Positions 19,602 through 52,534 of a stretch of 64,000 bases of DNA are shown one piece after another. A program made the translations under genes and the position numbers. Where the stretch lies: positions 32,265 to 96,264 of the forward strand of contig JAZDNV010000001.1 in the NCBI GenBank assembly GCA_043799385.1, read 5' to 3'. Positions within the stretch are counted from its first letter, which is position 1; the number at the start of each line of letters is the position of its first letter. The DNA is from Candidatus Aenigmatarchaeota archaeon. Its GTDB lineage: Archaea; Aenigmatarchaeota; Aenigmatarchaeia; GW2011-AR5. The notes under the pieces are model-generated. The model was not told where the DNA came from, did not search any database, and saw only the letters and a program-made list of their open reading frames with translations.

Positions 19602-21017
19602 ATGTCCAAAAACAACTACATTAAATATGTTTTTCTAACTATCGTCTTATTAATATTAGTTTCATTCTTTATGTATACGGGATTGAATAAAAACCCTGAG
19701 CTGAAATATAAAGATTATAATCTCGTTTTTGTTTCCTTTGACGCTCTTCAGGCAAACCATGTTCATAATCTTGGCTATTACAGGAATATAACGCCAACAA
19801 TCGATGAACTGGCTGATAGCGGGTTTAATTTTAAAAATGCCATAAGCGTTTCATCGTGGACCGTTCCTTCGAGTATGTCATGGTTTACTGGCGTTTATCC
19901 ATCCCAACATAAGGTTGTAAATAAATTTTCTGTATATACTGAAAAAAACAAAACCATTTCAAATCTAAAGTTATTATCGCCTGAAATAATAACACTTGCT
20001 GAATTGTTTAAACAGAACGGTTATACTACAGCAGGTTTTACTGGCGACGCGGGCGTTAATGGTGTTTTTGGTTATGATAAAGGCTTTGACTTATATTTTG
20101 ACAATACAACGCAGTTTTCTGGTATGGAGGTAAGTGTACCTAAGGCTATAGAATGGTTAAAAAATAACAAAGATAAAAGATTCTTTTTATTTCTTCATGG
20201 TTACGATTTTCATGGACAATATGAGCCGCCTGATGGGTTTGACTACCGTTTTGTTGACGATTATAACGGATTTTACAACGGTAGCAGAGAACAACAGGCA
20301 AAACTCAGGGAAGATGGCTTAGAAAACGGTTATATAAATCTAAGTGAAGATGACGTAAAATTCTGGCGCGCAATATATGATGAAAAAATCTCTAGAGCTG
20401 ATGAGAAGTTCAAGAATTTTATTATCGAATATGAAAAACTTGGGTTGATGAACAAGACCATATTCATTCTAACATCTGACCACGGGACTGAATTTTATGA
20501 GCATGGTAGAGTTGACCACGGCTTTTCTTTATACGACGAACTGATACACGTGCCATTGATTATAATCCTTCCAGGTAAAACTGGCTTGAGTATTGAAAAC
20601 CAAGTCAGTTCTATTGACGTAATGCCGACTATCTTGGATCTACTTGATATAAATTATAATAGCACAGTTGAAAACCAGATGAGGGGTACAAGTCTCGTGC
20701 CTTTAATGGTTGGCGATAATATGGCCATTGATGCGTACTCTGAAACCGATTATAGGTTGTATACTCATAAGAAATCTGTAAGAACTTATGATGGGTGGAA
20801 ATTCATCTATACATTTGCCGAGTATCCAGATAAAAAAATGATAAAAGAACTGTATAATTTAAAAAACGATCCTCATGAAGAAGATAACCTTATTGAAATG
20901 GAGCCAAGAATTGCTTATGAGCTTGAGCAAAAATTATTCAGCTGGATGCGGGGGAATAAAATACAATATTCATATAATCTGGGATGCTCACCCGTATATT
21001 CAACGCAATGTAAATGA
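19602..21017 (+). CDS. Alkaline-phosphatase-superfamily sulfatase-like protein, membrane-anchored, with Thr in the nucleophile position
   Basis: N-terminal TM anchor. The sulfatase N-domain motif aligns as S-V-S-S-W-T-V-P-S-S-M-S-W-F-TG against the canonical S-x-S-P-V-C-S-P-S-R-A-A-L-L-TG, with Cys replaced by Thr and Arg by Ser. Confidence 0.75.
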   Translation: MSKNNYIKYVFLTIVLLILVSFFMYTGLNKNPELKYKDYNLVFVSFDALQANHVHNLGYYRNITPTIDELADSGFNFKNAISVSSWTVPSSMSWFTGVYPSQHKVVNKFSVYTEKNKTISNLKLLSPEIITLAELFKQNGYTTAGFTGDAGVNGVFGYDKGFDLYFDNTTQFSGMEVSVPKAIEWLKNNKDKRFFLFLHGYDFHGQYEPPDGFDYRFVDDYNGFYNGSREQQAKLREDGLENGYINLSEDDVKFWRAIYDEKISRADEKFKNFIIEYEKLGLMNKTIFILTSDHGTEFYEHGRVDHGFSLYDELIHVPLIIILPGKTGLSIENQVSSIDVMPTILDLLDINYNSTVENQMRGTSLVPLMVGDNMAIDAYSETDYRLYTHKKSVRTYDGWKFIYTFAEYPDKKMIKELYNLKNDPHEEDNLIEMEPRIAYELEQKLFSWMRGNKIQYSYNLGCSPVYSTQCK

Positions 21018-21021
21018 TTTA

Positions 21022-22503
21022 ATGAAAAAATTTTTCATAATTTTTATCTTAGCTTTGATTATAATAGTGGTTATTTTTGTTTCACAGCAACGTAGCGTAG
21101 AGATTGGAAAATGCGAGGATTGTAATGTAATTGTTTTTGTTCTGGATGCTTTACGTACAGATCATATGAGCTTGTACGGATATTATAGGAATACGACAAC
21201 GAATATTGATAAATTTGCTGATAAGGGCATTGTATTTGAAAACGCCTTCAGCCAGTCGTTCAACACATTACCAAGTGTTACGTCATTATTTACATCCACA
21301 TATCCTTCTTCGCATGGTGTATATTATGTATATAAGGATACCTTGAACCGCGATATCCCGACATTACCGAGAATACTGAAAAATTATGATTATAAAACAG
21401 CCGCATTCTCACCTTCGGATGATCCATATACTAATCATATTTTAGCTGATTTTGATGAGGGTCATAGGTTGGTTCCTTACTACGAATTTGAAGATAATTA
21501 TATATTCGACTGGTTAGAAAATAATTCAGAAGAAAAGTTTTTTCTTTATTATCACACGTATAACATTCACGCGCCATATCTCGTAACAAATGATGATGAT
21601 TTAAAAATTTATACCAGAGACTGTAACAGCGAAATAGGGGGGACCTTTAAGTACGTTTATAACATTTCAAGGGATAAACTTATTGATTACTACTATAACG
21701 ACAGCGAAAGGTTTTTTGAATATTTTGATAGAAATTTTATAGATGGATTAAACCTCTCCTCAATAAAAAATTATACTTATGAAGAAAGGTGGGAAATAAT
21801 TTTAGAAAATCCTCAACAGAGAAAACTTAAGAAGTTCTTTCATGTTGAGGTATTTCGTGAAATTTTCAAGGAAGATCATGTATGTATAAAGAGTCTTTAC
21901 GACACAAAAATATACCTGGTAGATCAATTTTTGAATAGGATATTCGAAAAGATTGATGAGCTTAACTTGACTAAAAAGACGATAATTATCATAACTGCTG
22001 ACCATGGGGAAGCGTTGTTTGATCATGGAGAAATGTCACATACGCAACTATATGATGAGGTTTTGCATATTCCTCTGATTGTAAAAACGCCTGATATAAA
22101 AAATAAAATTGTTGTTGAGGGTCTTGCTGAAAGCGTTGACATCATGCCAACGATTCTTGATGTTTTGGGGATACCTGTTAATCATGTGGCTCAGGGAAAG
22201 AGTCTTTTGCTAACTTTAAATCGAACGATGGCAAAGGAGTATGTTTATGCAAGCTTCGGTGAAGATTATACTATAAGGTCTAAAGACTGGAAGCTTTATA
22301 GACATGGTGATTGGACTGAACTTTATGATATAAAAAATGACCCTGATGAAATGATAAACGTTGCAGAAGTAAGGAGAGATGTTGTCCGGTCCATTATGAA
22401 TCGTGTTCTTAAACTGCCTAATTATAAAACGCGTAATAGCACTTTTAATGAAAATCTCTCTTCAGAAGAGATGATGAATATAATCAAAACCGGTTATTGG
22501 TAG
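21022..22503 (+). CDS. Second sulfatase-like alkaline-phosphatase-superfamily protein, membrane-anchored, Thr variant
   Basis: Start set at the in-frame ATG (MKKFFIIFILALIIIVVIF, TM anchor) rather than the overlapping ORF-track start at 20875. Motif FNTLPSVTSLFTS is paralogous to the upstream gene. Confidence 0.75.
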   Translation: MKKFFIIFILALIIIVVIFVSQQRSVEIGKCEDCNVIVFVLDALRTDHMSLYGYYRNTTTNIDKFADKGIVFENAFSQSFNTLPSVTSLFTSTYPSSHGVYYVYKDTLNRDIPTLPRILKNYDYKTAAFSPSDDPYTNHILADFDEGHRLVPYYEFEDNYIFDWLENNSEEKFFLYYHTYNIHAPYLVTNDDDLKIYTRDCNSEIGGTFKYVYNISRDKLIDYYYNDSERFFEYFDRNFIDGLNLSSIKNYTYEERWEIILENPQQRKLKKFFHVEVFREIFKEDHVCIKSLYDTKIYLVDQFLNRIFEKIDELNLTKKTIIIITADHGEALFDHGEMSHTQLYDEVLHIPLIVKTPDIKNKIVVEGLAESVDIMPTILDVLGIPVNHVAQGKSLLLTLNRTMAKEYVYASFGEDYTIRSKDWKLYRHGDWTELYDIKNDPDEMINVAEVRRDVVRSIMNRVLKLPNYKTRNSTFNENLSSEEMMNIIKTGYW

Positions 22504-22726
22504 TCTTTAAATATGCTCCAGGATAATTACGGAAGGGGTTGTGCTGCCTCATTTTATCGGATATTTTCCACTGACGGATCACCCAAGTACGATTAAAAGA
22601 ATATGCTAAATGCTCGATTACTGATTTTCATATAGCTATTTAAGAATTTTCCTAGAAGATAAAAAGATGAGATGCATATAGATAATTGCATGGCATCTCA
22701 ATTCGATGCAACGTGGTGTTCTGAAG

Positions 22727-23764
22727 ATGAGAGTCGGCATAGCTGGTTATGGCTGTTATATTCCTGTTTACAGGATAAAGGTCGAGGAGATCGCCAAGGT
22801 GTGGGGTCAGGACCCGAATGCGATAAAAAAAGGCTTAGGTATTGAAGAAAAGAGCGTCCCTGATATCGACGAGGATACTATAACGCTTGCTGTTGAAGCA
22901 GGACGAAACGCATTTCTTTCCGGCATTAATCCTGACAAGGTCGGTGCGTTATTTATCGGCAGCGAAAGTCACCCTTATGTTGTCAAGCCATCCGGCACCG
23001 TCGTTGCTGAAGCGCTCGGTTTGCCGCGCAATCTTATGCTTGCTGATTTCGAATTCGCATGCAAGGCTGGCACAGCAGCGATACAAGTTTGCTCAGCGAT
23101 GGTGCGAGCGGGCGATATTGAATACGGCATTGCAATAGGCAGCGACTGTGCACAAGGTCGACCTGGTGATGCACTAGAGTATACGGCCGCAGCAGGAGCA
23201 GCGGCGTTCATTGTCGGCAAAGAGCCGCTTGCAGAAATAGAAGGAAGCTACTCCTATACAACAGATACACCAGATTTCTGGCGCAGGGAAGGGCAATCGT
23301 ATCCCACTCATGGCGCACGCTTTACCGGCAAGCCTGCATACTTCCATCATATAACCGAGGCGACTAAAGGGTTGATGAGCAAACTTTCGTTGAAGAACGA
23401 TGATTTTGATTACGTTATCTTCCATATGCCGAACGGAAAGTTTCCGCGCGAAGCTTGCAAGTCTCTTGGTTTCGACGAGAAAAAATTATTACCATCTCTC
23501 GTCGTCGAGAAAGTCGGCAACAGCTATTCGGGTTCTTCTTTAATGGGTTTGTGCAAAATACTTGACATCGCAAAGCCAGGCGAACGAATCCTGCTGACGA
23601 GCTTTGGCTCGGGCGCGGGCAGCGATTCATTTTCATTTTTAGTCACCGACGCTATAGAGAAGAGGCGCTTTGGCCGTGTTGATTACTACGTTAACGACGA
23701 AAAAAGGAAACGCTACATTGATTACGGGACTTATATTAAAATGCGGGGTAAACTTAAACTATGA
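22727..23764 (+). CDS. Hydroxymethylglutaryl-CoA synthase (archaeal type)
   Basis: [17 protein letters not shown]...EFACKAGT... is an archaeal HMGCS of the thiolase superfamily. The ORF-track start at 22706 is trimmed to Met8. Confidence 0.85.
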
Positions 23765-24918
23765 AAAACGTTGCAATCGTGGGCATCGGCCAGGTAAAGT
23801 TCGGAGAGAACTGGAATGAATCGCTAAGAGACATTGCTACCGGAGCGATAAGGTCTGCCATGCTTGAGGCAGACATAGGCACAGAAGACGTTGAAGCACT
23901 TTATATCGGAAACATGGGCGCTGGCCGGTTTATCGGCCAGGAGCACCTTTCTGCCCTCATAGCAGATCATTCACGTTTGCTTCATAAGCCGGCGACAAGA
24001 TGCGAGGCTGCGTGCGCATCTGGTGCATTAGCATTCCGCCAGGCTTATTTATCAGTGATGTCCGGTCGCCATGACGTGGTTATGGTTGTGGGCGCCGAGA
24101 AGATGACCGACTTGAAGACAGGTGACGCAACGTCTGCATTAATAACAGCAGGTGACCAGGAAACAGAGGCGTCTTCGGGCATAACATTCGCTGGTTTGTA
24201 CGCATTGATAGCTAGGGCGCACATGAATGCCTACGGCACAACGAGCGAGCAGCTAGCGATGGTTTCGGTAATAAACCACAGAAATGCTATTGGCAATAAG
24301 TATGCGCAATTCCAGTATGAAATAAGCGTTGCAGACGTGCTTAAGTCGGCAATGGTAGCTGAGCCGTTGCATCTTTTAGACTGCTCGCCGATAACAGACG
24401 GCGCTGCTGCGTTGATAATAGCATCAGAAAACGCGGCGAAGCGGTTCAAGAGTCCAGTGTGGATACTTGCGAGCGAGCAGGCTTCTGATACGATAGCGCT
24501 GCACGACCGCAAGTCGTTGACAGAGATGCTTGCAACAAAACATGCGGCCAAAACTGCCTATGAAAAACTGAGAATAACGCCTAGTGATATAGATTTTGCC
24601 GAGGTTCATGATTGCTTTTCAATAAACGAAATATTGGCAATAGAGGATCTTGGTTTTTGTGAGAAAGGGCGCGGCGGCGAGCTTGTTGAAAGCGGCGAGA
24701 TAAAACTGAAAGGATCTATACCTATAAACACCACGGGTGGATTAAAGGCGATCGGCCACCCCGTAGGCGCGACTGGCGTCCGTCAATTGGTTGATATAAC
24801 CCGGCAGTTGCGCGGCGAATGCTACAACCAGGTTAAAGGCGACCTTGGGCTTGCTCTTAATGTTGGTGGAAGCGGAGCGACTGCATTGCTGACAATACTC
24901 GGAAAAGAGGTGAGATAA
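23761..24918 (+). CDS. Acetyl-CoA C-acetyltransferase (thiolase)
   Basis: Thiolase active-site Cys region [13 protein letters not shown] and C-terminal [11 protein letters not shown]. Start and stop overlap the neighbouring genes. Confidence 0.9.
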
Positions 24919-25304
24919 TGCCACACAAATCTTCTATACCGCTTGTCTGGAGGCTGAAGGGCGTACGGTATCGGCTTGTCGGCAGCTACTGCGAGAAATG
25001 TAAGAAATTCTACTTTCCGCCTAGAAACGAGTGCGAATGCAAGGAACGTACAAAAACCGTGTATTTGTCTGGTTTCGGTACGGTTGTTTCTTATACTACA
25101 ATCACTGCAGCGCCAAGTGGTTTCGAGGCAGCCACACCCTATAAGGTTGGTATTGTGGAATTAGAAGAAGGGCCAAGAATAACCACAGGGCTAATCGGCG
25201 ATATTCATATTGGCACTAAAGTAAAGGCGGTTTTTAGGGAGATTTACGAAGACGGTAAAGACGGACTAATCCATTATGGTTATAAATTCGTGCCTGTAGA
25301 GTAG
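24918..25304 (+). CDS. DUF35 OB-fold / zinc-ribbon scaffold protein of the archaeal thiolase-HMGCS complex
   Basis: CEKCKKFYFPPRNECECK zinc ribbon plus an OB fold, in the conserved position after the thiolase. Confidence 0.8.
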   Translation: MPHKSSIPLVWRLKGVRYRLVGSYCEKCKKFYFPPRNECECKERTKTVYLSGFGTVVSYTTITAAPSGFEAATPYKVGIVELEEGPRITTGLIGDIHIGTKVKAVFREIYEDGKDGLIHYGYKFVPVE

Positions 25305-25420
25305 AAGGTACCCGGTGTTTTCGTTTGGAGTTTTGTTTTTATTGAAAATTTGAGAATTTTATGAAAAAAACACTACCTTACTTTCCTATAACATTGTTAT
25401 TTTAATTGTTTTTTATAATA

Positions 25421-25509
25421 TCTCCATTTGAAACGAGGGGGTGTGTTGTGGTGGTGTTAATTCAAAACAAAAAAAGATATACCACCAACCCTATTTTCCA
25501 GTAGAGATA
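25421..25509. promoter_or_regulatory. Predicted oriC core: two inverted ORB-like elements flanking an AT-rich spacer
   Basis: Plus-strand TCTCCATTTGAAACGAGGGGGTGTGTTGTGGTGG at 25421..25456 closely matches the archaeal ORB consensus (CTCCAnnnGAAACGnAGGGGT). An inverted copy at 25482..25507 reads CTCTACTGGAAAATAGGGTTGGTGG on the other strand. The spacer is ttaattcaaaacaaaaaaagatata. A further AT-rich stretch lies at 25328..25375. Immediately upstream of orc1/cdc6. Confidence 0.6.
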
Positions 25510-25557
25510 TGTTTATATATACTCCAAGAGAAAAGTAGGTATATTCTTGGTGGTGTG

Positions 25558-26766
25558 ATGGAAGCAATAGCCAGTAATATTTTTTCCCAACATATAAACA
25601 AACCCTCGTTGTTTAAGAATAAAAATATATTGAACTCTACGTTCATACCGCCAAAAATATCATTCAGAGACGTTGAGATTGAACAGGCGGTTTCGGTACT
25701 TTCTCCGGCCCTGAGGAACTATAAGCCAAACAACATATTCATCTATGGCACGTGCGGAACTGGCAAGACCGTGGTTGTCAAATACGTCCTTAACCAACTC
25801 GAGGCTTTAGGCAAGAATAACATCAAAACAGTTTACGTCAACTGCAAAATGAAGCGCGTTGCAGATACAGAATACCGCTTGCTGGCGTGTCTGCTGCGCG
25901 AACTCGGTGTTACAGTGCCGGATACAGGCCTGCCTACAGACGTTCTTTACAGAAGATTTTTTGAGAAGGTTGACTCAAAACAGCATATAGTCCTAATCGT
26001 GCTTGATGAAATTGATACGCTATTCAACAAAGTAGGCGACGAATTCCTTTACAACCTGATAAGGATAAACAACGAGCTGAAAAACGCGCACATAAGCATA
26101 GTTGGGATAACCAACAACCTTTCTTTCCGGGAGGGCCTGGATGTAAGGATACGCTCTTCTTTGGGCGAAGAGGAAATTTTATTCAAGCCCTACAACGCCA
26201 TACAACTGAAAAACATACTTTCAGAAAGAATAGCTGAAGGGTTTTGCGAGAACGTCGTTTCCGAGGATGTCTTGGGCAGATGTGCCGCATTGGCTGCGCA
26301 GGAGCATGGCGATGCAAGGCGTGCACTTGATATGTTAAGAACAGCAGGCGAGCTTGCAGAGCGCATGGGCGATACAGAAATAACTGATACGCATGTTGAT
26401 TTGGCGGAGAAGAAGATTGACCTTGACCGTGTCGTCGAGACGATAAAGGCCCAGCCGAAACAGTCACAGGCGGTTCTGTGCGCGATAATGGCGTTGGAAA
26501 AACAAAGCAATGGCAAATGGAGCGATTCGCGGTTGCTCACAGGCAATGTTTTCTTGAAATATAAGGAGATAGTCAAGAACAACGGTTTGCGCGCCTTGAC
26601 ACAAAGAAGGATAAGCGACCTGATAGGTGAATTAGATATGCTCGGCGTAATCACTGCGAAGGTTATTTCCAAGGGAAGATACGGCAGAACGAGGGAGATA
26701 TCGTTGGCAATGGCGGATGAATTAAAGGACAAGGTAAAGGCGACCCTCTGGGAAAGATTTTTATGA
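25558..26766 (+). CDS. cdc6: Orc1/Cdc6 replication initiator
   Basis: Walker A GTCGTGKT, VLDEID Walker B, and a C-terminal winged helix. Start set at Met40 (MEAIASNIF...) because the upstream part of the ORF-track ORF overlaps the ORB elements. Confidence 0.85.
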   Translation: MEAIASNIFSQHINKPSLFKNKNILNSTFIPPKISFRDVEIEQAVSVLSPALRNYKPNNIFIYGTCGTGKTVVVKYVLNQLEALGKNNIKTVYVNCKMKRVADTEYRLLACLLRELGVTVPDTGLPTDVLYRRFFEKVDSKQHIVLIVLDEIDTLFNKVGDEFLYNLIRINNELKNAHISIVGITNNLSFREGLDVRIRSSLGEEEILFKPYNAIQLKNILSERIAEGFCENVVSEDVLGRCAALAAQEHGDARRALDMLRTAGELAERMGDTEITDTHVDLAEKKIDLDRVVETIKAQPKQSQAVLCAIMALEKQSNGKWSDSRLLTGNVFLKYKEIVKNNGLRALTQRRISDLIGELDMLGVITAKVISKGRYGRTREISLAMADELKDKVKATLWERFL

Positions 26767-27845
26767 ACAGGGACGAGATAGTTAAAAAATTTCTGGATAA
26801 AAAAAAGCTTCTGACACAGGCTGCGCTGGAAGCAATCCACGGCAAAAACCTAGACGATTTCTTGGGGAAGGAGTACGTATCACTTGTTCTGGAGGAACGG
26901 GATTTTTTTGTTCACGATGTCAAGATACTAAAAAATTTGACGGAAAAGCTCAATGAGATAACAACAGACGATTTTGTAAAATTCTACAAATCGAAATACG
27001 AGCGAATGCGTGAGATAATACTGAGCAGGATGAAGAAGGATTTCGTATCATTAAATAAATTGGATAATTTCAGGAACGAGGTCTTCGTTCTCGGTATCGC
27101 CAGAGAGATAAAAGAGAATGGCGACAAGAAAATCGTCGAATTTGAGGACCTAACGGCAACGAAACCTATAATATTCGACGATATATCAGATCTGGAACTG
27201 GACGATGTTGTTGCAATAAAGGCAATAAGCGCCGGTAATGTTTTATACGGCAAGGGTATTTTTTATCCTGACATACCGCTTCGCGAACCGGTTAAAGGGA
27301 TGGACAAGGCGTGCTTTATCTCTGACATGCATCTGGAAGAAGCGCCATTGAGCGGTGCCGAAGACTTTTTCAAATGGTTTTCAAACCAGGCGATAAAATA
27401 CCTTTTTGTCGCCGGTGACGTTGGTGACAGGGAAAAATTTGAAAAACTCGTCAACGAATACTGTATAGGCAAATCGGTTTTCTCGACACCAGGTTGCGGT
27501 GCCGAATACCCAGGCTTGCCGGAAAAATTTGAAAGCAAGCATATAACATCATTATCCAATCCTGCAATGGTCGAGATAAACGGCATAAAGATACTGCTTG
27601 TGCACAGCCTTAACTTGAATATGCTCAAGAAAAGATACCTAGGTAAATCGAAGATAATACTGCCTGAAGATTATCTGGTCCTCGATTACGTTCCGGACAT
27701 CGTGCATTACGGCCACAATCACGAGGCGCAAGTCACGAATTATAAATCAGTCACACTGGTCAATTCAGGTTCATTGCTCACGGATTTCAAGCCAGTAGTG
27801 ATCGATTTCGCAACGCGCGAAGTTGAGCAGATAAAGATAGCTTAA
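26763..27845 (+). CDS. DNA polymerase II (PolD) small subunit DP1-like protein: short N-terminal helical domain plus calcineurin-like phosphoesterase
   Basis: Phosphoesterase motifs DMH, GDVGDRE and HYGHNHE. A DP1-like N-terminal helical region (IVKKFLDKKKLLTQAALEAI). Its position immediately after cdc6 is typical for DP1 near euryarchaeal origins. 360 aa is short for DP1, so an alternative metallophosphoesterase remains possible. Confidence 0.55.
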   Translation: MNRDEIVKKFLDKKKLLTQAALEAIHGKNLDDFLGKEYVSLVLEERDFFVHDVKILKNLTEKLNEITTDDFVKFYKSKYERMREIILSRMKKDFVSLNKLDNFRNEVFVLGIAREIKENGDKKIVEFEDLTATKPIIFDDISDLELDDVVAIKAISAGNVLYGKGIFYPDIPLREPVKGMDKACFISDMHLEEAPLSGAEDFFKWFSNQAIKYLFVAGDVGDREKFEKLVNEYCIGKSVFSTPGCGAEYPGLPEKFESKHITSLSNPAMVEINGIKILLVHSLNLNMLKKRYLGKSKIILPEDYLVLDYVPDIVHYGHNHEAQVTNYKSVTLVNSGSLLTDFKPVVIDFATREVEQIKIA

Positions 27846-27979
27846 AGGCGTGTTTATTGGTCACGATTTATGATATTATACAATTAGGGTAAGCGAAAAT
27901 CTGCTGACGTATTTGCTACTCATAAGATATATTTAATGATGGCGGAAAGAATTAAATAATTTAATCAATCAATGGGGTT

Positions 27980-30589
27980 ATGTTATTTCAATTATTGGAT
28001 GTTGACTATTTTTTGAACGGAAACAAACCGGTCGTAAGATTATACGGCAAGACAGAAAACGACAACTCAATATGCGTATTCTGCGAGAATTTCCAGCCTT
28101 ATTTCTACATAAAAGAAAAAACCGACGTGCCCGGTGCGATAAAGATAGAAGAGGTCGAGAAATTCCTGCCTCTAGGTTATCATGAAAAACCAATAAAGCT
28201 ACAGAAAGTAACTCTGACCAATCCGCAGGACGTCGGTGTAGTGAGAGAGCAGCTGGCCGCAGACGGCGTAGAGAGCTATGAAGCAGATATATTGTTCAAA
28301 TACAGGTTCATGATCGACCATGGTCTGCACGGCATGGACTGGATTGAATTCGAAGGAAGAAAAACGCACACGAATCTGGTTAACATACCTGCATACGTTG
28401 CAAGCAGCATAAAGAGAGTCGAGAGCTATTCGAACGCGCCGCTGAAATACATGTCGTTTGATATTGAATGCCTGCCGAGTGACGTTAAGCGGTCAATAGA
28501 CGCAAAGATGGACCCTATAATAATGATAGCGCTGACTTTCTACCCGGATTACAGGAACAAAAAAAACCTCGTTCTTGTCGCAAAGCCGGTGAATGAAAAC
28601 GATGCTAAAGGATTCAGAAGCGAGAAAGAGATGCTTGAGGAATTCCTGAACATAATAAGGGTGTACGACCCGGACATAATCACGGGTTATAACATAAATT
28701 CTTTTGATCTGCCGTACCTGCTTGAGAGGTTAAAACAAAACCATCTGCCAGCGAATTTCGGCCGCTGCAACGACAAGTACGTCTACTCAAAAAAATTCGG
28801 CATGACAGAAGAATGCACAATCAACGGAAGAATAGTAGTTGACCCATACCAACTGTTGAAAAGAGACCCGTGGCTCAAATTCGTACGTTACGACCTTAAT
28901 ACGATTGCAAAGGAGTTGCTGGGCGAAGCGAAATTGGACGTTGAGTACAGCGAAATGCCAGAGCTTTGGAACGGCACACGGGACGAACTAAGCAGGTTCA
29001 TCGAATATGCGAGAAAAGATGCAGATCTATCAATACGCTTAGTTCTTGAGAGAAGGATGCTTGACAAATTCATAGAGCTTGCGAAGGTATCCGGATTGCT
29101 TTTACAGGATACGTTCGGCGGCCAATCCACGAGGGTAGAAACGATGATTCTGCACGAATTCAAGAAAAGGAATTTCGTGATGCCGTCTAAGCCAACTTCT
29201 TCTGAACTTACAAAACGATTGAAAGAACGGGAGAAGAAAGGATTGAAGGGCGCGACAGTTTTAGAACCTAATAAAGGATTTTATTCTGACTATGTGCTCG
29301 TACTGGATTTCAAAAGCCTGTACCCGAACATAATCAGGACGTATTGCATTTCGCCTGACTGCCTACTGCTTGATGGCAGCGATGGTATTAAATCACCGTC
29401 AGGCGCGGTTTTTGCGAAACGTGAAGTTCGCGAGGGCGTTTTCCCGTTTCTTCTAACAAAGCTGCTTGAAGCAAGGGGAATTGCAAAGAAGGCGATGAAA
29501 ACCGTAGGCAAAGAAGAGAAAAAGATACTCAATGCAAAACAATTGGCGTTAAAGGACATGGCCAACTCGTTCTACGGCTATACAGGCTACATACGTGCAA
29601 GGCTGTATATGATAGACGTGGCTAATGCAGTGACGAGTTATGGCCGTGAAAATATCGAAAGGACGAAAAAACTGATAGAGGATACCTTTAAAGTGAATGT
29701 CATCTACGGCGACACTGATTCCATATTCCTGAAGGTGAGTGTAAAGAGCATAGACGAGGCGAATGAGCTAGGCAGTAAAATATCAAAATTCGTGACCGAC
29801 AACCTTCCAGGCTACCTTGAGTTGGAATTCGATAAGATATACCGCTCGTTCCTCATACTGACAAAGAAGAGATATGCCGGTTGGAAGTTTGACTATTCAG
29901 ATGGAAAATGGGTTGACAGCATAGACATGCGCGGCATCGAGACAGTCAGACGCGATTGGTGCTCGCTGGTTACAGAAACAATGAACGAGATACTCAACAT
30001 AATCCTGAAAGAGGGCGATGTACAGAAGGCGCTTAATCGCATGCGCGATGTCGTAGAAAAGATAAAGAGAAATGAAATACCAATGGAAAAACTTACTGTT
30101 GTGAAGGAAATAACGAAACATGTGGATTCATATGAAGGGATACTGCCGCACATCGAGCTGGCAAAAAAGCTCACTAACAGGAACCCGCACGACGTACCAA
30201 AAGTTGGCGACAGGATTGGTTATATTATAATAAAAGGCAATCAGCTGCTGTCCAAGAGGGCAGAAGACCCGAAATATGCGGAAAAAAACAGATTACAGAT
30301 AGATTCTGATTACTATCTGTCGTCGCAGCTATTTCCGCCGATCGAAAGAATATTGAACGCCGTCGGGATAACGAGGAGCGAGATGCTTGGCAACGGAAAA
30401 CAGATGAACATATTCGACATGGTCAACGGGAAAAAAAGCTCAAGCAATGAGTTAGCAGGTTGGGAAGGATTTGTCTGCAAAAAATGCAACAAATCCTACA
30501 GAAGGATGCCGCTGCAAGGTCTTTGCGAGTGCGGCGGCGAACTTTTGCTCAGCTACCACGGCTCTGTTGGCAACAAGATAAAGATTTAG
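27980..30589 (+). CDS. polB: Family B DNA polymerase, complete, with exonuclease and polymerase motifs and a C-terminal zinc finger
   Basis: Exo I FDIE, polymerase motifs DFKSLYPNII and YGDTDS, and C-terminal CKKCN...CECGG. Confidence 0.9.
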   Translation: MLFQLLDVDYFLNGNKPVVRLYGKTENDNSICVFCENFQPYFYIKEKTDVPGAIKIEEVEKFLPLGYHEKPIKLQKVTLTNPQDVGVVREQLAADGVESYEADILFKYRFMIDHGLHGMDWIEFEGRKTHTNLVNIPAYVASSIKRVESYSNAPLKYMSFDIECLPSDVKRSIDAKMDPIIMIALTFYPDYRNKKNLVLVAKPVNENDAKGFRSEKEMLEEFLNIIRVYDPDIITGYNINSFDLPYLLERLKQNHLPANFGRCNDKYVYSKKFGMTEECTINGRIVVDPYQLLKRDPWLKFVRYDLNTIAKELLGEAKLDVEYSEMPELWNGTRDELSRFIEYARKDADLSIRLVLERRMLDKFIELAKVSGLLLQDTFGGQSTRVETMILHEFKKRNFVMPSKPTSSELTKRLKEREKKGLKGATVLEPNKGFYSDYVLVLDFKSLYPNIIRTYCISPDCLLLDGSDGIKSPSGAVFAKREVREGVFPFLLTKLLEARGIAKKAMKTVGKEEKKILNAKQLALKDMANSFYGYTGYIRARLYMIDVANAVTSYGRENIERTKKLIEDTFKVNVIYGDTDSIFLKVSVKSIDEANELGSKISKFVTDNLPGYLELEFDKIYRSFLILTKKRYAGWKFDYSDGKWVDSIDMRGIETVRRDWCSLVTETMNEILNIILKEGDVQKALNRMRDVVEKIKRNEIPMEKLTVVKEITKHVDSYEGILPHIELAKKLTNRNPHDVPKVGDRIGYIIIKGNQLLSKRAEDPKYAEKNRLQIDSDYYLSSQLFPPIERILNAVGITRSEMLGNGKQMNIFDMVNGKKSSSNELAGWEGFVCKKCNKSYRRMPLQGLCECGGELLLSYHGSVGNKIKI

Positions 30590-32799: not shown

Positions 32800-34407
32800 A
32801 TGTCTGGTATCAATGCCGTTTATTCTGCTGACAGGAAATTTACTGGAAATGATGTTATTGAGTGGACATCTTCTGCCGAGGTTCAAGAGCAACCGAGGGG
32901 CGAGGCTGGCGCAGGAGTCGCTATGGCCGATCAATGGGGAGAGATAAAAATAGAGACGAATATGGGCCCTGTCAGAATAGCTATACCCCTAGAAACTCTG
33001 TTAAAGGTAGGTAACCCATCAGTTTACGTTGTCGCGGGGCACACCAGATACGCGAGAGAAGAAAACCCGAGTATCATAAATACGCAGCCAATAAAAATTG
33101 AAACCGAGCGATATGCAACTGCTGTGGCAGCTGATAGCAAGCTTGTTGGATGGAATGAAATAAACACGTGGTTCGAATATAATCCGAAAAGAACCATGAC
33201 AGGAGCAGAGGTCTTTGGTAGAGTATTCTTAGATGAGTTAGAAAGAACAAATGGCAATATAAGAGATGCCGGTGAAAAATTCTTCTATAGAATGGATGGA
33301 AAGGGATTTTATTCTGTTGTAATGCTTGTTAAGGAAAAGGACAAAAATGATGTTAGATTGGTGGCTATAAGAGACCCTTATTCAGGATTGCCGTTTTGCT
33401 GCGCGAAGAGAGATGAAACGTATTTCTTTAGTTCAGGAACGTACCCCATGGAGCACGAAGGAATTAATCTCAGAGATATAAAAGAAGTACCGCGGGCAAG
33501 CGTAACAGTGATATCAGAGAACGGTATTGATACTAATGTATATGAACAATACAAAAAACCAATAAGAACATGTGTATTTGAAAGGGTATATTTTGGCAGT
33601 CCTTATGACAGGGTATTAACAGAGTTGGGTCCAAAATTCTATGAGCTATATGATAAATATCATAAATTATTGACAGCTAATCCCGAATTCAAAGAAACGC
33701 CAAGTAATTATATGATAAGAGCCGTCTTGGGTGCTTGTTGGGCTGAAAGGCACCGAGAGTTGGCGAACGAAGTTGACAAAGCCATACCAATAGTTTATAC
33801 TGGAACTGGGGTCACACACGGTATATCGAGGGTACTCGGTTTGCCAGAAGAACATGATGCTTTATTTAAGACGTATGCACCTAGAACATTTCAGATATCA
33901 GATAAAGAACTAAGGAAGATGGAAGTCGACTTGAAGAACGCAGGTTTCGCAGAGTTTATAAAGTCGTTTAGGATTCTCACAGGCGATGACAGTATTGTTA
34001 AAGGCGGGGTAGGTGGTTATTACAGCAAGAAGAGAGGCGTATTGGGATTATTTGAGCGTCTAGGAGCTACATCACTTCTAATGGCAATCTCGTATTCTCC
34101 AATGCCTTATCCATGCATAAGAGGGTTCGCTCCTTATCATCTGAGAGAAAGGATGGCGGCCGAGGGCATGGCACACCTCCCGGAAGAAACACAAGAAAAA
34201 TTAGTAGGAGAAAAAATGGGCACAGGTTTAAAAATACCGTTTAGTGTGGGCTATCAACGAAAACAAGATACATACGATATTTTCGGTCCTCACCACTGTT
34301 TTGCTTGTATGGATGGAAACTACCCTGTAGATGTTAAATACGTACCAGACTGGATCAGGTCACAAAAAGATATAGCTGATACGCTTGCAAATATCAGGTG
34401 GGTCTAA
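32800..34407 (+). CDS. Class-II glutamine amidotransferase (Ntn hydrolase)-like domain protein with Ser in the nucleophile position and a large uncharacterised C-terminal region
   Basis: The N-terminus MSGINAV parallels the MCGI start of Ntn amidotransferases, and GHTRYAREENPSIINTQP resembles the GH-x-R-Y/W-(S/A)-T oxyanion segment. No PP-loop or PRTase motif in the C-terminal half. Confidence 0.45.
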   Translation: MSGINAVYSADRKFTGNDVIEWTSSAEVQEQPRGEAGAGVAMADQWGEIKIETNMGPVRIAIPLETLLKVGNPSVYVVAGHTRYAREENPSIINTQPIKIETERYATAVAADSKLVGWNEINTWFEYNPKRTMTGAEVFGRVFLDELERTNGNIRDAGEKFFYRMDGKGFYSVVMLVKEKDKNDVRLVAIRDPYSGLPFCCAKRDETYFFSSGTYPMEHEGINLRDIKEVPRASVTVISENGIDTNVYEQYKKPIRTCVFERVYFGSPYDRVLTELGPKFYELYDKYHKLLTANPEFKETPSNYMIRAVLGACWAERHRELANEVDKAIPIVYTGTGVTHGISRVLGLPEEHDALFKTYAPRTFQISDKELRKMEVDLKNAGFAEFIKSFRILTGDDSIVKGGVGGYYSKKRGVLGLFERLGATSLLMAISYSPMPYPCIRGFAPYHLRERMAAEGMAHLPEETQEKLVGEKMGTGLKIPFSVGYQRKQDTYDIFGPHHCFACMDGNYPVDVKYVPDWIRSQKDIADTLANIRWV

Positions 34408-39402: not shown

Positions 39403-39948
39403 TTACTCACCACCAATATATTTTATTACAAATGTCCTTATTTCCTTATTTTTTATCATTGATATATTCCTTTCCTTCCAGAAACCTTCAATGGGTTTCT
39501 TGTAATTACCACGGTCATGGTATATCTTTGCCTGAATCAGGCGCTCGGCTATATCAATGTCTCTTACAAAGACAGACTCCCGCGTTTTCTGCTGGTTGTA
39601 CTCTTCCCATAAAGCGATAACCTCTTTCCGGGTTTTCGCGCTCAGAGATGATGTCATTTTCTTGACGGCCTTTTCCTCCTTTTCCATCTTTTCTTTTTCA
39701 GTCACAGTTCCTCCGCTAGGCCAGTTCTCCTTTGTAATTATATCACCAACCACTGATTCTGCCAAATCGTGAATTAACGCCATTTTTATCACCTTTTTCT
39801 CATCCACGTTTTTTGCAAGCAACATTGACAAGACTGCAGCCATGAAACTATGCTCTGCGCTGCTTTCCGGATTTTTAACACCGCGTTCAACCCAACCGGT
39901 TCGTTTAATATCCTTGAGTTTGTTTACATAACCGATGAATTCATGCAT
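39403..39948 (-). CDS. HD-domain phosphohydrolase (YfbR-like 5'-nucleotidase family)
   Basis: H...HD...D motif set (EHSFMAAVL...IHDLAESVVGDI). Start trimmed to MHEFIGY because the ORF-track N-terminus overlaps tRNA-Val. Confidence 0.75.
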   Translation of the reverse strand: MHEFIGYVNKLKDIKRTGWVERGVKNPESSAEHSFMAAVLSMLLAKNVDEKKVIKMALIHDLAESVVGDIITKENWPSGGTVTEKEKMEKEEKAVKKMTSSLSAKTRKEVIALWEEYNQQKTRESVFVRDIDIAERLIQAKIYHDRGNYKKPIEGFWKERNISMIKNKEIRTFVIKYIGGE

Positions 39949-39949
39949 A

Positions 39950-40050
39950 TGGGTCGGGGCAGAATTGAACTGCCGGCCTCCACGTTGTAAGCGTGGCGTC
40001 ATACCAATTTCCGCAGACGGCTTTAGCCGTCAACGCTAGACCACCGACCC
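39950..40050 (-). tRNA. tRNA-Val (anticodon UAC) with a 28-nt non-canonical intron in the D-loop
   Basis: Acceptor GGGTCGG/CCGACCC plus A; anticodon stem CCACG/CGTGG, loop CTTACAA; T-arm GGCAG-TTCAATT-CTGCC; variable AGGCC. The D-arm GTCTAG[CGTTGACGGCTAAAGCCGTCTGCGGAAA]TTGGTATGAC becomes canonical once the hairpin-forming 28-nt block is removed. Confidence 0.65.
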
Positions 40051-45925: not shown

Positions 45926-47083
45926 TTATAATCCAGCGTCTTTTCTAAGTGCGCTCGCCTTGTCAGTCTTTTCCCATGTGAAATCAGGGTCGTCCCTGCC
46001 GAAATGACCGTAACAGGCGGTTTTTTTGTATATCGGTCTCAGCAGGTTCAGGTTTTCTATCACTGCGCGTGGCCTCATGTCGAAGTGCTTGGTGACCAAC
46101 TCTAAAATTTTTTCATCCGGCACCTTACCGCTGCCGAGTGTATTCACCATCACTGATACGGGCTTAGCCACACCGATTGCATACGCTATCTGGACTTCGC
46201 ACCTTTCAGCTAAACCAGCAGCAACAATATTTTTTGCAACGTATCTCGCCATATATGCTCCAGAGCGGTCGACTTTAGACGGATCTTTGCCTGAAAAACA
46301 ACCGCCACCATGACGACCGACTCCGCCATACGTATCGACGATAATCTTTCTGCCAGTGACGCCCGTATCACCCTCTGGGCCGCCGATTACAAACCGACCG
46401 GTTGCATTTATATGTATTTTTGTATTCTCGTCCATAAGCGTTCCGCAAATCGGTTTTATGACATTTTCCAGAATATCTTTCTTCAACACGTCTTCTGATA
46501 TATCGTCCTTGTGCTGCTGTGCGATGACGATTGCCTCAATTCTCGTTGGCTTATCGTCAACGTATTCAACAGTAACCTGTGACTTGCCGTCAGGACCTAT
46601 GTTATTTACAATATCGCGCTTTCTGACTTCGGCGAGCCTTCTCGTAAGCTTATGCGCAAGAATAATAGGTAGCGGCATAAGTTCATCAGTTTCATTGCAT
46701 GCATAGCCGTACATCATCCCCTGATCGCCTGCTCCCTGGTCTTTGTTGTCGGTAGCAGTAACGCCTTGCGAGATGTCAGGGCTCTGACCGTGGATAGAAA
46801 TCCATACGCCTGCGTCTTCAGAATCAATACCAAATCTAGGATCAGTATAACCAATCTCTTTCAAAACGCGCCTGGCGATATACTGAATATCGGCAAAACC
46901 GCGTGTAGTCACTTCACCAGCAACGTGAACAGTGCCAGTTGTCACTAATGTCTCGACAGCAACGCGTGAGTACGGGTCCTGGACTATAAGATTATCGAGT
47001 ATTGCATCACTTATCTGGTCACAAATTTTATCCGGATGACCTTCCGTTACACTCTCCGACGTTACCAAATACCTATTTTTCAT
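45926..47083 (-). CDS. metK: S-adenosylmethionine synthetase, bacterial/eukaryotic type (MetK)
   Basis: [36 protein letters not shown] and [22 protein letters not shown] are MetK-type signatures, not the archaeal MAT type. Start trimmed to MKNRYLV. Confidence 0.85.
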
Positions 47084-47185
47084 TAAATCACCATTTTTAT
47101 ATTCAAATTCACATTTAAATAATTTATTGTTAATAATATGCATAAATGCATAAAGTATTCACAGCATGAATAATAATCGATCATT

Positions 47186-52514: not shown

Positions 52515-52534
52515 TTTAATAGTCTTCCGATGAA

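What the first reader, a model, noticed from the sequence alone, without database searches (positions are those of the whole stretch)
25305..25560. Canonical oriC: inverted ORB elements directly upstream of orc1/cdc6, followed by a DP1-like gene
TCTCCATTTGAAACGAGGGGGT matches the archaeal origin recognition box consensus nearly base for base. A second copy in inverted orientation lies about 40 bp away across an A/T-rich spacer, and a further A/T-rich stretch lies just upstream. The oriC-cdc6-PolD small subunit arrangement is the established euryarchaeal origin layout. The ORF-track start of cdc6 overlaps the ORB, so the true start is probably Met40.
Basis: partly seen in the sequence, partly recalled or inferred. 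Interest (0 to 1): 0.5.

Follow-up and report, generated by a model that had tools for sequence, protein, structure and literature searches.

The report
Replication origin beside orc1, DPANN archaeon
The 253-bp gap upstream of the orc1/cdc6 initiator gene has the sequence hallmarks of an ordinary archaeal chromosome replication origin, shared with some 70 related uncultured DPANN archaea, and about 40% of those origins also carry a 13-bp palindrome that I did not find described.

Summary
TCTCCATTTGAAACGAGGGGGT sits at 25421-25442. An inverted, weaker copy lies 41 bp downstream at 25484-25505. The intergenic gap 25305-25557 holds 4 of the window's 7 ORB-core matches.

A weight matrix built only from relatives ranks 25423-25444 first in the window at 25.1 bits, against a shuffle maximum of 20.1. 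In 56 of 67 independent loci, the best ORB match lies within 450 bp upstream of orc1.

Three corrections apply:
- The likely unwinding region is the 83% A+T stretch 25331-25420.
- The organism resembles Aenigmatarchaeota (DPANN), not a euryarchaeon.
- The DP1-like gene is not a standard PolD small subunit. It is the degenerate partner of a Pol-delta-like PolB with a DP2-type zinc finger, a pairing already published by Kazlauskas et al. 2020.

ATG 25558 (Met40) is supported as the orc1 start. GC skew in 64 kb is uninformative.

One addition: the palindrome ATAACATTGTTAT (25388-25400) lies inside the A+T-rich stretch. It is 82-fold enriched upstream of orc1 across relatives and keeps a near-fixed distance from the proximal ORB. 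It may be an analogue of the crenarchaeal ucm element.

Origin firing itself is inferred, not shown.

The parts
25308..25329 (-). ORB-A, the distal origin recognition box (TCCAAACGAAAACACCGGGTAC read on the - strand). Its TCCA core end faces the A+T-rich stretch. It abuts the stop codon (25302-25304) of the upstream gene.
   Evidence: Exact TCCANNNGAAA core. PWM 8.5 bits, rank 9 of about 128,000 positions. Position and orientation match the distal (-) ORB seen in relatives. Weak when taken alone.
25331..25420 (.). A+T-rich stretch, the candidate duplex-unwinding element and MCM loading zone between opposed ORB-A and ORB-B.
   Evidence: 83% A+T, the 4th most A+T-rich 90-mer of the window. In relatives the interval between the divergent ORB pair has a median length of 101 bp and is 83% A+T.
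25388..25400 (.). Palindrome ATAACATTGTTAT inside the A+T-rich stretch, 35 bp (start to start) upstream of the ORB-B core.
   Evidence: The only exact match to ATAACANTGTTAT in the window. With up to 1 mismatch there are 40 copies in 33.9 kb upstream of orc1 against 6 in 418 kb elsewhere. It is present in 30 of 74 loci and 29 of 69 non-redundant clusters. The distance to the proximal ORB is mostly 35-46 bp. Its pieces are the most enriched non-trivial 8-mers.
25418..25457 (+). ORB-B, the extended proximal ORB: core TCCATTTGAAA 25423-25433, G-string GGGGG 25437-25441, GTGGTGGTG extension 25448-25456.
   Evidence: PWM 25.1 bits, the best in the window, against a shuffle maximum of 20.1. Unique at up to 3 mismatches. 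17 of 22 positions match TCTCCACAGGAAACGGAGGGGT, the sequence printed in PMC5376975, which I recall to be A. pernix ORB4. It shares the GAAACG end with the S. solfataricus mORB.
25479..25510 (-). ORB-C, the inverted copy (TCTACTGGAAAATAGGGTTGGT = 25484-25505 on the - strand, plus a GGTGGT extension). It converges on ORB-B.
   Evidence: Inverted repeat I1. PWM 13.7 bits, rank 3. An equivalent (-) element is present in close relatives such as L001, L017 and L019.
25512..25519 (+). TTTATATA, the candidate TATA box of the orc1 promoter.
   Evidence: Read directly from the sequence. The same TATA-like word directly precedes the D-type core in close relatives L004, L013, L015, L016, L035 and L045. 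No transcription data were available.
25523..25544 (+). ORB-D, a mini-ORB-like core (TCCAAGAGAAA) 3 nt after the TATA box. It is a candidate operator for orc1 autoregulation.
   Evidence: Exact core, with PWM only 6.3 bits. 40 of 75 loci have an exact + strand core 20-110 nt before the Orc1 match start, and in close relatives it is fused to the TATA box.
25558..26766 (+). orc1/cdc6 initiator gene (402 aa from ATG 25558, preceded by GGTGGTG 25549-25555).
   Evidence: Pfam and NCBIfam. PDB 2QBY_A 3e-99 and 2V1U 1e-89. Start supported.
26763..27845 (+). DP1-like second-subunit gene (360 aa), a short and probably catalytically degenerate phosphoesterase.
   Evidence: Its best NCBIfam hits are the DP1 models, but it falls below every DP1 equivalog cut-off. 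Pfam reports only Metallophos_2. PDB DP1 hits are 1e-11 to 4e-13, and the GNHD-motif region reads PGCGAE and aligns poorly. Consistent with the 'Aenigma' DP1-like group of PMC7544198.
27980..30589 (+). Family-B DNA polymerase (869 aa) with one C-terminal CxxC...CxC zinc motif (residues 831-863).
   Evidence: Pfam DNA_pol_B and exonuclease domains. The C-terminus hits DP2 C-terminal models. The top PDB hit is human Pol delta at 5e-111. The orc1 / DP1-like / PolB order recurs in L003, and L004 also has this PolB downstream of orc1.

Best explanation
The interval 25305-25557 is the orc1-linked chromosomal replication origin (oriC1 type) of an Aenigmatarchaeota-like DPANN archaeon.

Proposed mechanism, by analogy with Sulfolobus, Aeropyrum and Pyrococcus (all inferred):
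- Monomers of the adjacent Orc1 protein bind the ORBs with fixed polarity.
- ORB-A (25308-25329, -) and ORB-B (25423-25444, +) point their TCCA...GAAA cores at each other across an 83% A+T stretch of about 90 bp.
- Their winged-helix and lid regions would therefore face that stretch, and ATP-bound Orc1 would recruit MCM there for bidirectional initiation.
- ORB-C and the mini-ORB D bracket the orc1 TATA box (25512-25519) and probably let Orc1 repress its own promoter.
- A conserved palindrome (25388-25400) inside the A+T-rich stretch is probably a site for a dimeric accessory factor.

Shown here: the motifs, their statistical excess, their conservation and geometry in relatives, and the identity of the initiator. 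Inferred: Orc1 binding, unwinding, MCM loading, autoregulation, and any role for the palindrome.
For: - The ORB-B sequence is unique in the window and is its top PWM hit, using a matrix trained only on relatives: 25.1 bits against a shuffle maximum of 20.1.
- Four of the 7 core matches in 64 kb fall within 215 bp.
- Across 74 related loci, the exact core TCCANNNGAAA occurs 133 times in 33.9 kb upstream of orc1 and 52 times in 418 kb elsewhere, about 31-fold denser.
- In 56 of 67 loci not used for training, the best PWM hit of the whole locus lies within 450 bp upstream of orc1. 45 of 67 show a divergent (-)...(+) pair with a median spacing of 101 bp and an 83% A+T interval. The window's A-B spacing is 94 bp, also at 83% A+T.
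- The initiator is of the Orc1-1 type.
- Core-inward polarity at DUE-flanking ORBs is the arrangement described for known archaeal origins (PMC6742236; PMC12141716).
- The surroundings are housekeeping genes: HMG-CoA synthase, thiolase and a DUF35 gene upstream, with HMG-CoA reductase, CDC48 and SAM synthetase elsewhere. The upstream synteny is shared with L001. This argues for a chromosome rather than a mobile element.
Against: - There is no experimental or genome-scale evidence of initiation here. GC skew simply follows the coding strand. A GC3-skew breakpoint scan is flat from 2 to 48 kb, with permutation p = 0.09 at the locus.
- ORB-A and ORB-D score at background level when taken alone (8.5 and 6.3 bits).
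- The A+T-rich stretch is not the most A+T-rich in the window.
- ORB-A overlaps T-rich runs just after the upstream gene's stop codon. These could instead be its terminator.
- In T. kodakarensis a canonical oriC and Cdc6 are dispensable (PMC5663688, abstract). So presence does not prove use.
Confidence: 0.8

Rival explanations
1. The ORB cluster is mainly or only an operator array through which Orc1 controls its own promoter. Alternatively it is a dormant origin, and replication of this genome starts elsewhere or by recombination.
For: ORB-C and ORB-D bracket the candidate TATA box, and the TATA-plus-core fusion is conserved in close relatives. T. kodakarensis replicates without oriC or Cdc6 (PMC5663688). 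Skew gives no support for initiation here.
Against: The conserved divergent ORB pair flanking an 83% A+T interval of about 100 bp lies 130-250 bp upstream of the start codon. A conserved palindrome sits at a near-fixed distance within it. Promoter control would not need either feature. Autoregulation and origin function coexist in known systems (PMC4010727).
Confidence: 0.12
2. The locus is the origin of an integrated plasmid or virus, or a secondary origin. It would have been captured together with orc1 and the PolB / DP1-like pair, whose PolB lineage has been suggested to be of viral origin.
For: Archaeal replicator-initiator pairs are often acquired from extrachromosomal elements (PMC4010727). 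Kazlauskas et al. suggest viral provenance for B4/B6 PolBs.
Against: The flanking genes are core metabolism. The order HMGCS / thiolase / DUF35 / oriC / orc1 / DP1-like is shared with L001 at 59% Orc1 identity. orc1-DP1 linkage extends to L007 and to Nanohaloarchaeota (L008). The initiator is of the widely conserved Orc1-1 type. The scans run on the window (repeats in 25200-25700, tRNA and Rfam across the whole window) showed no border-like signal, but integrase genes were not searched for and only 16 of about 67 ORFs were scanned against Pfam.
Confidence: 0.05
3. The inverted repeat 25418-25510 acts as an RNA or DNA hairpin, such as a terminator or 5' leader structure, rather than as protein-binding ORBs.
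For: As RNA, 25410-25520 folds at -27.7 kcal/mol with z = -2.76.
Against: The repeat lies upstream of the candidate TATA box. What relatives conserve is the ORB word itself in both orientations and at variable spacing, not pairing. There is no Rfam match. The arms are the top-ranked ORB PWM hits.
Confidence: 0.02

Closest known systems
oriC1-type archaeal origins bound by Orc1-1 (Sulfolobus oriC1, Aeropyrum pernix oriC1, Pyrococcus oriC)
   Same: - It lies directly upstream of the initiator gene.
- ORBs have a TCCA...GAAA core plus a G-run.
- Opposed ORBs flank an A+T-rich stretch.
- The initiator is closest to the two ORB-co-crystallised proteins.
- ORB-B matches 17 of 22 positions of the A. 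pernix-type 22-mer and 10 of 13 positions of the Pyrococcus and S. solfataricus mini-ORB cores (sequences).
   Different: - The G-run follows the core after 3 nt. In the P. furiosus ORB1 and ORB2 oligonucleotides the gap is 9 nt.
- No second ORB cluster sits inside the DP1-like gene, unlike in Thermococcales. The best PWM hit there is 7.0 bits.
- A lineage-specific palindrome lies in the unwinding region.
- There is no experimental mapping for any DPANN origin that I could find.
Thermococcales layout oriC-cdc6-dp1-dp2 (PolD operon)
   Same: The gene order origin / orc1 / DP1-homologue / polymerase catalytic subunit is preserved.
   Different: The catalytic gene is a family-B polymerase carrying only the DP2-type C-terminal zinc motif. 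The DP1 homologue is 360 aa, fails the DP1 cut-offs, and has PGCGAE in place of the GNHD motif. This corresponds to the B6-aenigma1 PolB with inactivated DP1 described in Aenigmarchaeota (PMC7544198).
ucm element and UBP protein of Sulfolobales and Desulfurococcales origins (PMC12141716)
   Same: A short conserved non-ORB motif sits inside the A+T-rich region between the opposed ORBs. It is conserved across divergent relatives while the surrounding A+T-rich DNA is not.
   Different: - The sequences differ: ATAACANTGTTAT, a perfect palindrome, against the 11-bp ATTATACAAAC.
- It sits nearer the proximal ORB rather than midway.
- It is essentially origin-specific, with 6 copies in 418 kb of flanks. 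UBP has over 300 genomic sites.
- UBP is reported only from Sulfolobales and Desulfurococcales, so any binding protein here is unknown.
- No binding or functional data exist.

Membership tests
Archaeal Orc1/ORB-type replication origin (oriC1 type) | Immediately adjacent orc1/cdc6 initiator gene of the Orc1-1 type | tested here: met
   Pfam Cdc6_C, Cdc6_lid and AAA. TIGR02928 393.9 bits against cut-off 181. 2QBY_A 3e-99 and 2V1U 1e-89.
Archaeal Orc1/ORB-type replication origin (oriC1 type) | Several ORB or mini-ORB repeats clustered well above background | tested here: met
   4 of 7 core matches in the window lie within 215 bp. The PWM top hit is 25.1 bits against a shuffle maximum of 20.1. The core is 31-fold denser upstream of orc1 in 74 relatives.
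Archaeal Orc1/ORB-type replication origin (oriC1 type) | ORBs of opposite polarity flanking an A+T-rich unwinding element | tested here: met
   ORB-A(-) and ORB-B(+) are 94 bp apart across 83% A+T. The same geometry appears in 45 of 67 independent loci. ORB-A is weak on its own.
Archaeal Orc1/ORB-type replication origin (oriC1 type) | Nucleotide-skew or Z-curve extremum at the locus | tested here: inconclusive
   The window is too short. Skew follows the coding strand and the GC3-skew breakpoint scan is flat.
Archaeal Orc1/ORB-type replication origin (oriC1 type) | Initiator binding and replication initiation demonstrated (footprint, ChIP, marker frequency, 2D gel) | not testable with these tools
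   Requires experiments, or read-depth data from the source metagenome.
PolD small subunit DP1 (PRK04036 equivalogs) | Scores above the curated family cut-off | tested here: not met
   The best score is 123.7 bits against a cut-off of 445. The other DP1 models score 47.6-97.2 bits against cut-offs of 425-993.
PolD small subunit DP1 (PRK04036 equivalogs) | Complete set of phosphoesterase catalytic motifs | tested here: inconclusive
   DxH (DMH), GDxxD (GDVGD) and GHxH (GHNH) are readable. Where GNHD is expected, the sequence is PGCGAE, and that region aligns poorly to solved DP1.
PolD small subunit DP1 (PRK04036 equivalogs) | Partnered with a DP2 large subunit | tested here: not met
   The next gene is a family-B polymerase, and the same is seen in L003 and L004. 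Absence of DP2 from the whole genome was not testable.
B6-aenigma1 PolB plus inactivated DP1-like subunit (Kazlauskas et al. 2020) | Delta-like PolB with a single C-terminal zinc motif resembling the DP2 C-terminal domain, in Aenigmarchaeota, co-occurring with a DP1-like protein | tested here: met
   Residues 831-863 hit three DP2 C-terminal models. Human Pol delta is the top PDB hit. The nearest Orc1 relatives are Aenigmatarchaeota MAGs. The DP1-like gene is adjacent. No phylogeny against the published B6 set was made.
ucm/UBP origin element | ucm consensus sequence and a UBP homologue | not tested
   By eye, the palindrome differs from the 11-bp ucm ATTATACAAAC deduced from the oligonucleotides quoted. 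No UBP homologue was searched for. The paper reports UBP as confined to Sulfolobales and Desulfurococcales. Only a positional analogy is claimed.

The most novel reading that the evidence does not exclude
The palindrome (T)ATAACANTGTTAT(A) may be a previously undescribed, origin-specific cis element of Aenigmatarchaeota-like and Nanohaloarchaeota-like DPANN origins. It would be bound by a still unknown dimeric factor that helps MCM loading or activation. That would make it a functional counterpart of the crenarchaeal ucm/UBP pair, evolved independently. The palindrome sits in the unwinding region, usually 35-46 bp from the orc1-proximal ORB.
Probability: 0.35. Interest if true: 0.6.

Novelty: new variant of a known kind. 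Interest (0 to 1): 0.38.

Why it matters
On its own, an ORB origin beside orc1 is what a specialist expects.

The comparative result is more useful. It gives a consensus ORB (TCCAnnnGAAAnnAaGGGGTG) and a conserved architecture for origins of uncultured DPANN archaea. My literature searches found no analysis of their cis elements.

The intra-DUE palindrome is a concrete, testable candidate for what the ucm/UBP authors asked about. They wondered whether lineages outside the Sulfolobales and Desulfurococcales have analogous origin accessory factors (PMC12141716).

The locus also shows orc1, the DP1-like gene and the zinc-finger PolB in the same positions that orc1, dp1 and dp2 occupy in Thermococcales. 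That fits in-place replacement of DP2, a scenario discussed for the ancestry of eukaryotic polymerase architecture (PMC7544198).

Tried and rejected
- GC skew, AT skew and cumulative skew over the window track gene orientation only.
- Third-codon-position skew, split into leading and lagging genes around 25400, goes in the expected direction (difference 0.044). It is not significant (permutation p = 0.09), and a breakpoint scan is flat from 2 to 48 kb, so it cannot place an origin.
- An exact-sequence look-up of the 402-aa Orc1 in public assemblies found nothing, so the source contig was not identified.
- There is no second ORB cluster inside the DP1-like gene, unlike Thermococcales. The best hits are 7.0 bits at 26847-26868 and 8.7 bits at 28013-28034, which is background.
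- The 15.6-bit PWM hit at 32882-32903 lies inside a gene and is at shuffle level (mean shuffle maximum 14.6), so I treated it as chance.
- I considered the palindrome as a symmetric Orc1 site. It lacks the TCC and GAA words that are invariant in ORBs, so this is unlikely.
- I considered the palindrome as an activator site for the orc1 promoter. It lies about 125 bp upstream of the TATA box, which is far for archaeal activators (my own knowledge), and its distance is fixed relative to the ORB.
- The sigma-70 promoter scanner was not used, because it does not apply to archaea.
- The Samson et al. 2016 paper on MCM recruitment was not available. Polarity logic was taken from reviews instead.
- That TCTCCACAGGAAACGGAGGGGT is A. 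pernix ORB4 rests on my memory. The library only shows the sequence used as a generic duplex.
Full report
**What is at the coordinates**

The interval 25305-25557 is a 253-bp intergenic gap. Upstream lies a three-gene mevalonate-pathway cluster on the + strand:
- an HMG-CoA-synthase-like gene, 22706-23764
- a thiolase, 23761-24918
- a DUF35/ChsH2 OB-fold gene, 24918-25304

Downstream lies an orc1/cdc6 gene.

An inverted copy lies 41 bp downstream. It reads TCTACTGGAAAATAGGGTTGGT on the - strand at 25484-25505. With their GGTGG extensions the two arms reach about 35 nt each.

Two more ORB-like elements are present:
- TCCAAACGAAAACACCGGGTAC on the - strand at 25308-25329, touching the upstream stop codon
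- TCCAAGAGAAAAGTAGGTATAT at 25523-25544, three bases after a TTTATATA word at 25512-25519

I call the four elements A(-), B(+), C(-) and D(+).

**Is it more than chance?**

The core CTCCANTNGAAA with up to one mismatch has 7 matches in the window, which is the chance level overall (5.9 expected). Four of them lie within 25319-25533.

To avoid circularity I built a 22-position weight matrix from ORB-like elements upstream of orc1 in eight relatives only, then scanned the window:

| Element | PWM score (bits) | Rank in window |
|---|---|---|
| B | 25.1 | 1 |
| C | 13.7 | 3 |
| A | 8.5 | 9 |
| D | 6.3 | 22 |

The best score in 50 shuffles was 20.1. A and D would not be convincing alone. Their case rests on position and conservation.

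**The initiator**

From ATG 25558 the protein is 402 aa with Cdc6_C, Cdc6_lid and AAA domains. It scores 393.9 bits on TIGR02928 against a cut-off of 181.

Its closest solved structures are the two initiators crystallised on ORB DNA: S. solfataricus Orc1-1 (2QBY_A, 3e-99) and A. pernix ORC1 (2V1U, 1e-89).

The mechanical ORF start at GTG 25441 is an artefact of an open frame. In eight relatives the frame opens only a few codons before homology begins. The family and structure alignments start at residues 5-17 of the 402-aa form. GGTGGTG at 25549-25555 is a plausible ribosome-binding site.

**Relatives**

A scan of one genome per species found 12 loci. The eight closest have 48-60% Orc1 identity and are Aenigmatarchaeota, unnamed DPANN-like MAGs, an Asbonarchaeaceae (Nanohalarchaeota) MAG and Ca. 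Nanosalinarum. A profile scan of metagenomes added 80 loci at 48-65% identity.

Across the 74 loci with enough upstream sequence:
- The exact core TCCANNNGAAA occurs 133 times in 33.9 kb upstream of orc1 and 52 times in 418 kb elsewhere, about 31-fold denser.
- In 56 of the 67 loci not used for the matrix (66 related loci plus the window), the best-scoring position of the whole locus lies within 450 bp upstream of orc1.
- 45 of those 67 show a (-) element followed by a (+) element, with a median spacing of 101 bp and an intervening A+T content of 83%.

In the window the A-B spacing is 94 bp. The interval 25331-25420 is also 83% A+T and is the 4th most A+T-rich 90-mer of the window. The lineage consensus is TCCAnnnGAAAnnAaGGGGTG.

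**Which pair flanks the unwinding region?**

In the window and in its relatives, the TCCA...GAAA cores of the distal (-) and proximal (+) boxes face the A+T-rich interval, and the G-runs point away from it.

Reviews of the Orc1-ORB structures state that opposed ORBs place the winged-helix and lid regions facing each other across the DUE, with MCM loaded between them (PMC6742236; PMC12141716). That the winged helix binds the core and the AAA+ module binds the G-rich side is my recollection of the 2007 structures. I could not check it here.

On this reading A/B is the loading pair.

C and D bracket the candidate TATA box. The TATA-plus-TCCAAnAGAAA fusion recurs in close relatives. This suggests that Orc1 represses its own promoter. 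That is an inference only.

**Comparison with published ORBs**
- B matches 17 of 22 positions of TCTCCACAGGAAACGGAGGGGT. That sequence is printed in PMC5376975, and I recall it as A. pernix ORB4.
- B matches 10 of 13 positions of the P. furiosus ORB2 core and of the S. solfataricus mORB.
- In the P. furiosus oligonucleotides the G-run is 9 nt from the core. Here it is 3 nt away.

**Skew**

GC skew follows gene orientation.

Third-position skew of leading-oriented versus lagging-oriented genes around 25400 differs by 0.044 in the expected direction. The permutation p is 0.09, and the statistic is equally high for any breakpoint between 2 and 48 kb. This is neutral evidence.

**Downstream genes**

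The 360-aa protein (26763-27845) is homologous to DP1. Its best NCBIfam and PDB hits are all PolD small subunits. It reaches only 123.7 bits against a cut-off of 445. Pfam finds only a generic phosphoesterase domain, and the sequence reads PGCGAE where the GNHD motif is expected.

The next gene (27980-30589) is a family-B polymerase of 869 aa. Its last 35 residues (CKKC...CEC) hit three DP2 C-terminal models. Its best solved relative is human Pol delta, at 5e-111, ahead of Thermococcales PolB.

This is the arrangement Kazlauskas et al. 2020 described for Aenigmarchaeota: a B6-aenigma1 PolB with a DP2-like zinc motif, an inactivated DP1-like subunit, and DP2 usually absent (PMC7544198).

The order orc1 / DP1-like / PolB recurs in L003, and L004 also has this PolB downstream of orc1. 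L007 and L008 keep orc1-DP1.

**The palindrome**

Inside the A+T-rich interval lies ATAACATTGTTAT (25388-25400), the only exact match to ATAACANTGTTAT in the window.
- With up to one mismatch it occurs 40 times in the 33.9 kb upstream of orc1 across relatives and 6 times in 418 kb elsewhere, about 82-fold denser. It is present in 30 of 74 loci and 29 of 69 non-redundant clusters.
- Its start lies 35-46 bp before the proximal ORB core in about two-thirds of cases. Some loci carry two copies about 90-105 bp apart.
- In an unbiased 8-mer enrichment, its pieces (AACATTGT, CAATGTTA) rank directly after TATA-like words and alongside ORB pieces.
- The surrounding A+T-rich DNA does not look alignable at this divergence (by eye; no alignment was run), so the motif is probably under selection.
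- Ca. Nanosalinarum lacks it. Instead that locus has nine GGTTATAY words within 195 bp just outside its distal ORB, against 0.23 expected. Two of them read TTATACAAAC, which is 10 of the 11 bases of the Sulfolobus ucm.

The positional parallel is the ucm, an essential motif in the DUE of Sulfolobus oriC1. It is bound by UBP, a protein confined to Sulfolobales and Desulfurococcales. Its discoverers asked whether other lineages have analogues (PMC12141716).

The sequences differ. This palindrome is origin-specific rather than genome-wide, and no binding protein is known. I therefore claim only an analogy of position. My literature searches found no description of DPANN origin elements.

**Verdict**

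This is an ordinary orc1-linked archaeal origin by every test that sequence allows. I put confidence at about 0.8 that it is the functional chromosomal origin.

The rivals are less likely:
- an autoregulatory operator or dormant origin (0.12)
- a captured mobile-element origin (0.05)
- an RNA or DNA hairpin (0.02)

The added value is the comparative architecture and the conserved palindrome. These lift it from 'new member' to a modest 'new variant' of a known kind.

Noticed in passing
window 25388-25400; also L001 5829-5841, L003 5745-5757 and 5847-5859, L005 5746-5758, and 26 further loci: The palindrome ATAACANTGTTAT lies inside the A+T-rich region between opposed ORBs. It is 82-fold enriched upstream of orc1, present in 29 of 69 non-redundant related loci, and mostly 35-46 bp from the proximal ORB. 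I did not find it described in the literature searched.
   Followed up: yes
L008 5523-5717 (Ca. Nanosalinarum J07AB56 scaffold, 285-480 bp upstream of orc1): Nine copies of GGTTATAY lie within 195 bp, against 0.23 expected, just outside the distal ORB. This is an iteron-like array. Two copies read TTATACAAAC, which is 10 of 11 bases of the Sulfolobus ucm motif.
   Followed up: partly
window 26763-30589: A short DP1-like gene with a degenerate GNHD motif is followed by a Pol-delta-like family-B polymerase that carries a DP2-type C-terminal zinc motif. They sit in the positions that dp1 and dp2 hold in Thermococcales. This matches the published B6-aenigma1 system (PMC7544198).
   Followed up: partly
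window 49740-54814: A second family-B polymerase (52535-54814, 759 aa) is clearly PolB3-like: Thermococcales PolB at 1e-157, Pol delta only at 1e-45. It lies directly downstream of an Lhr-type large helicase (49740-52514). The window therefore encodes two different PolB lineages.
   Followed up: partly
window 45926-47143 (-): This S-adenosylmethionine synthetase matches the MetK-type Pfam domains PF00438, PF02772 and PF02773. To my knowledge these are the bacterial/eukaryotic kind rather than the archaeal-type enzyme. It may be a transferred gene.
   Followed up: no
window 19602-22503: Two adjacent + strand ORFs (471 and 542 aa) overlap by 143 bp in different frames. Both share ...DHG...H...LYDE.(I/L)H(V/I)PLI... 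motifs, so they look like tandem paralogues. Their families were not checked.
   Followed up: no
window 39954-40013 (-): A borderline Rfam tRNA match scores 29.6 bits against a gathering score of 29, and ARAGORN does not call it. It overlaps the start of ORF 39403-40002. No confident tRNA was found anywhere in the 64 kb.
   Followed up: no
window 32800-34407 (+): A 535-aa ORF has no Pfam match at E <= 1e-5. The second-best ORB PWM hit of the window (32882-32903, 15.6 bits) lies inside it, at chance level.
   Followed up: no
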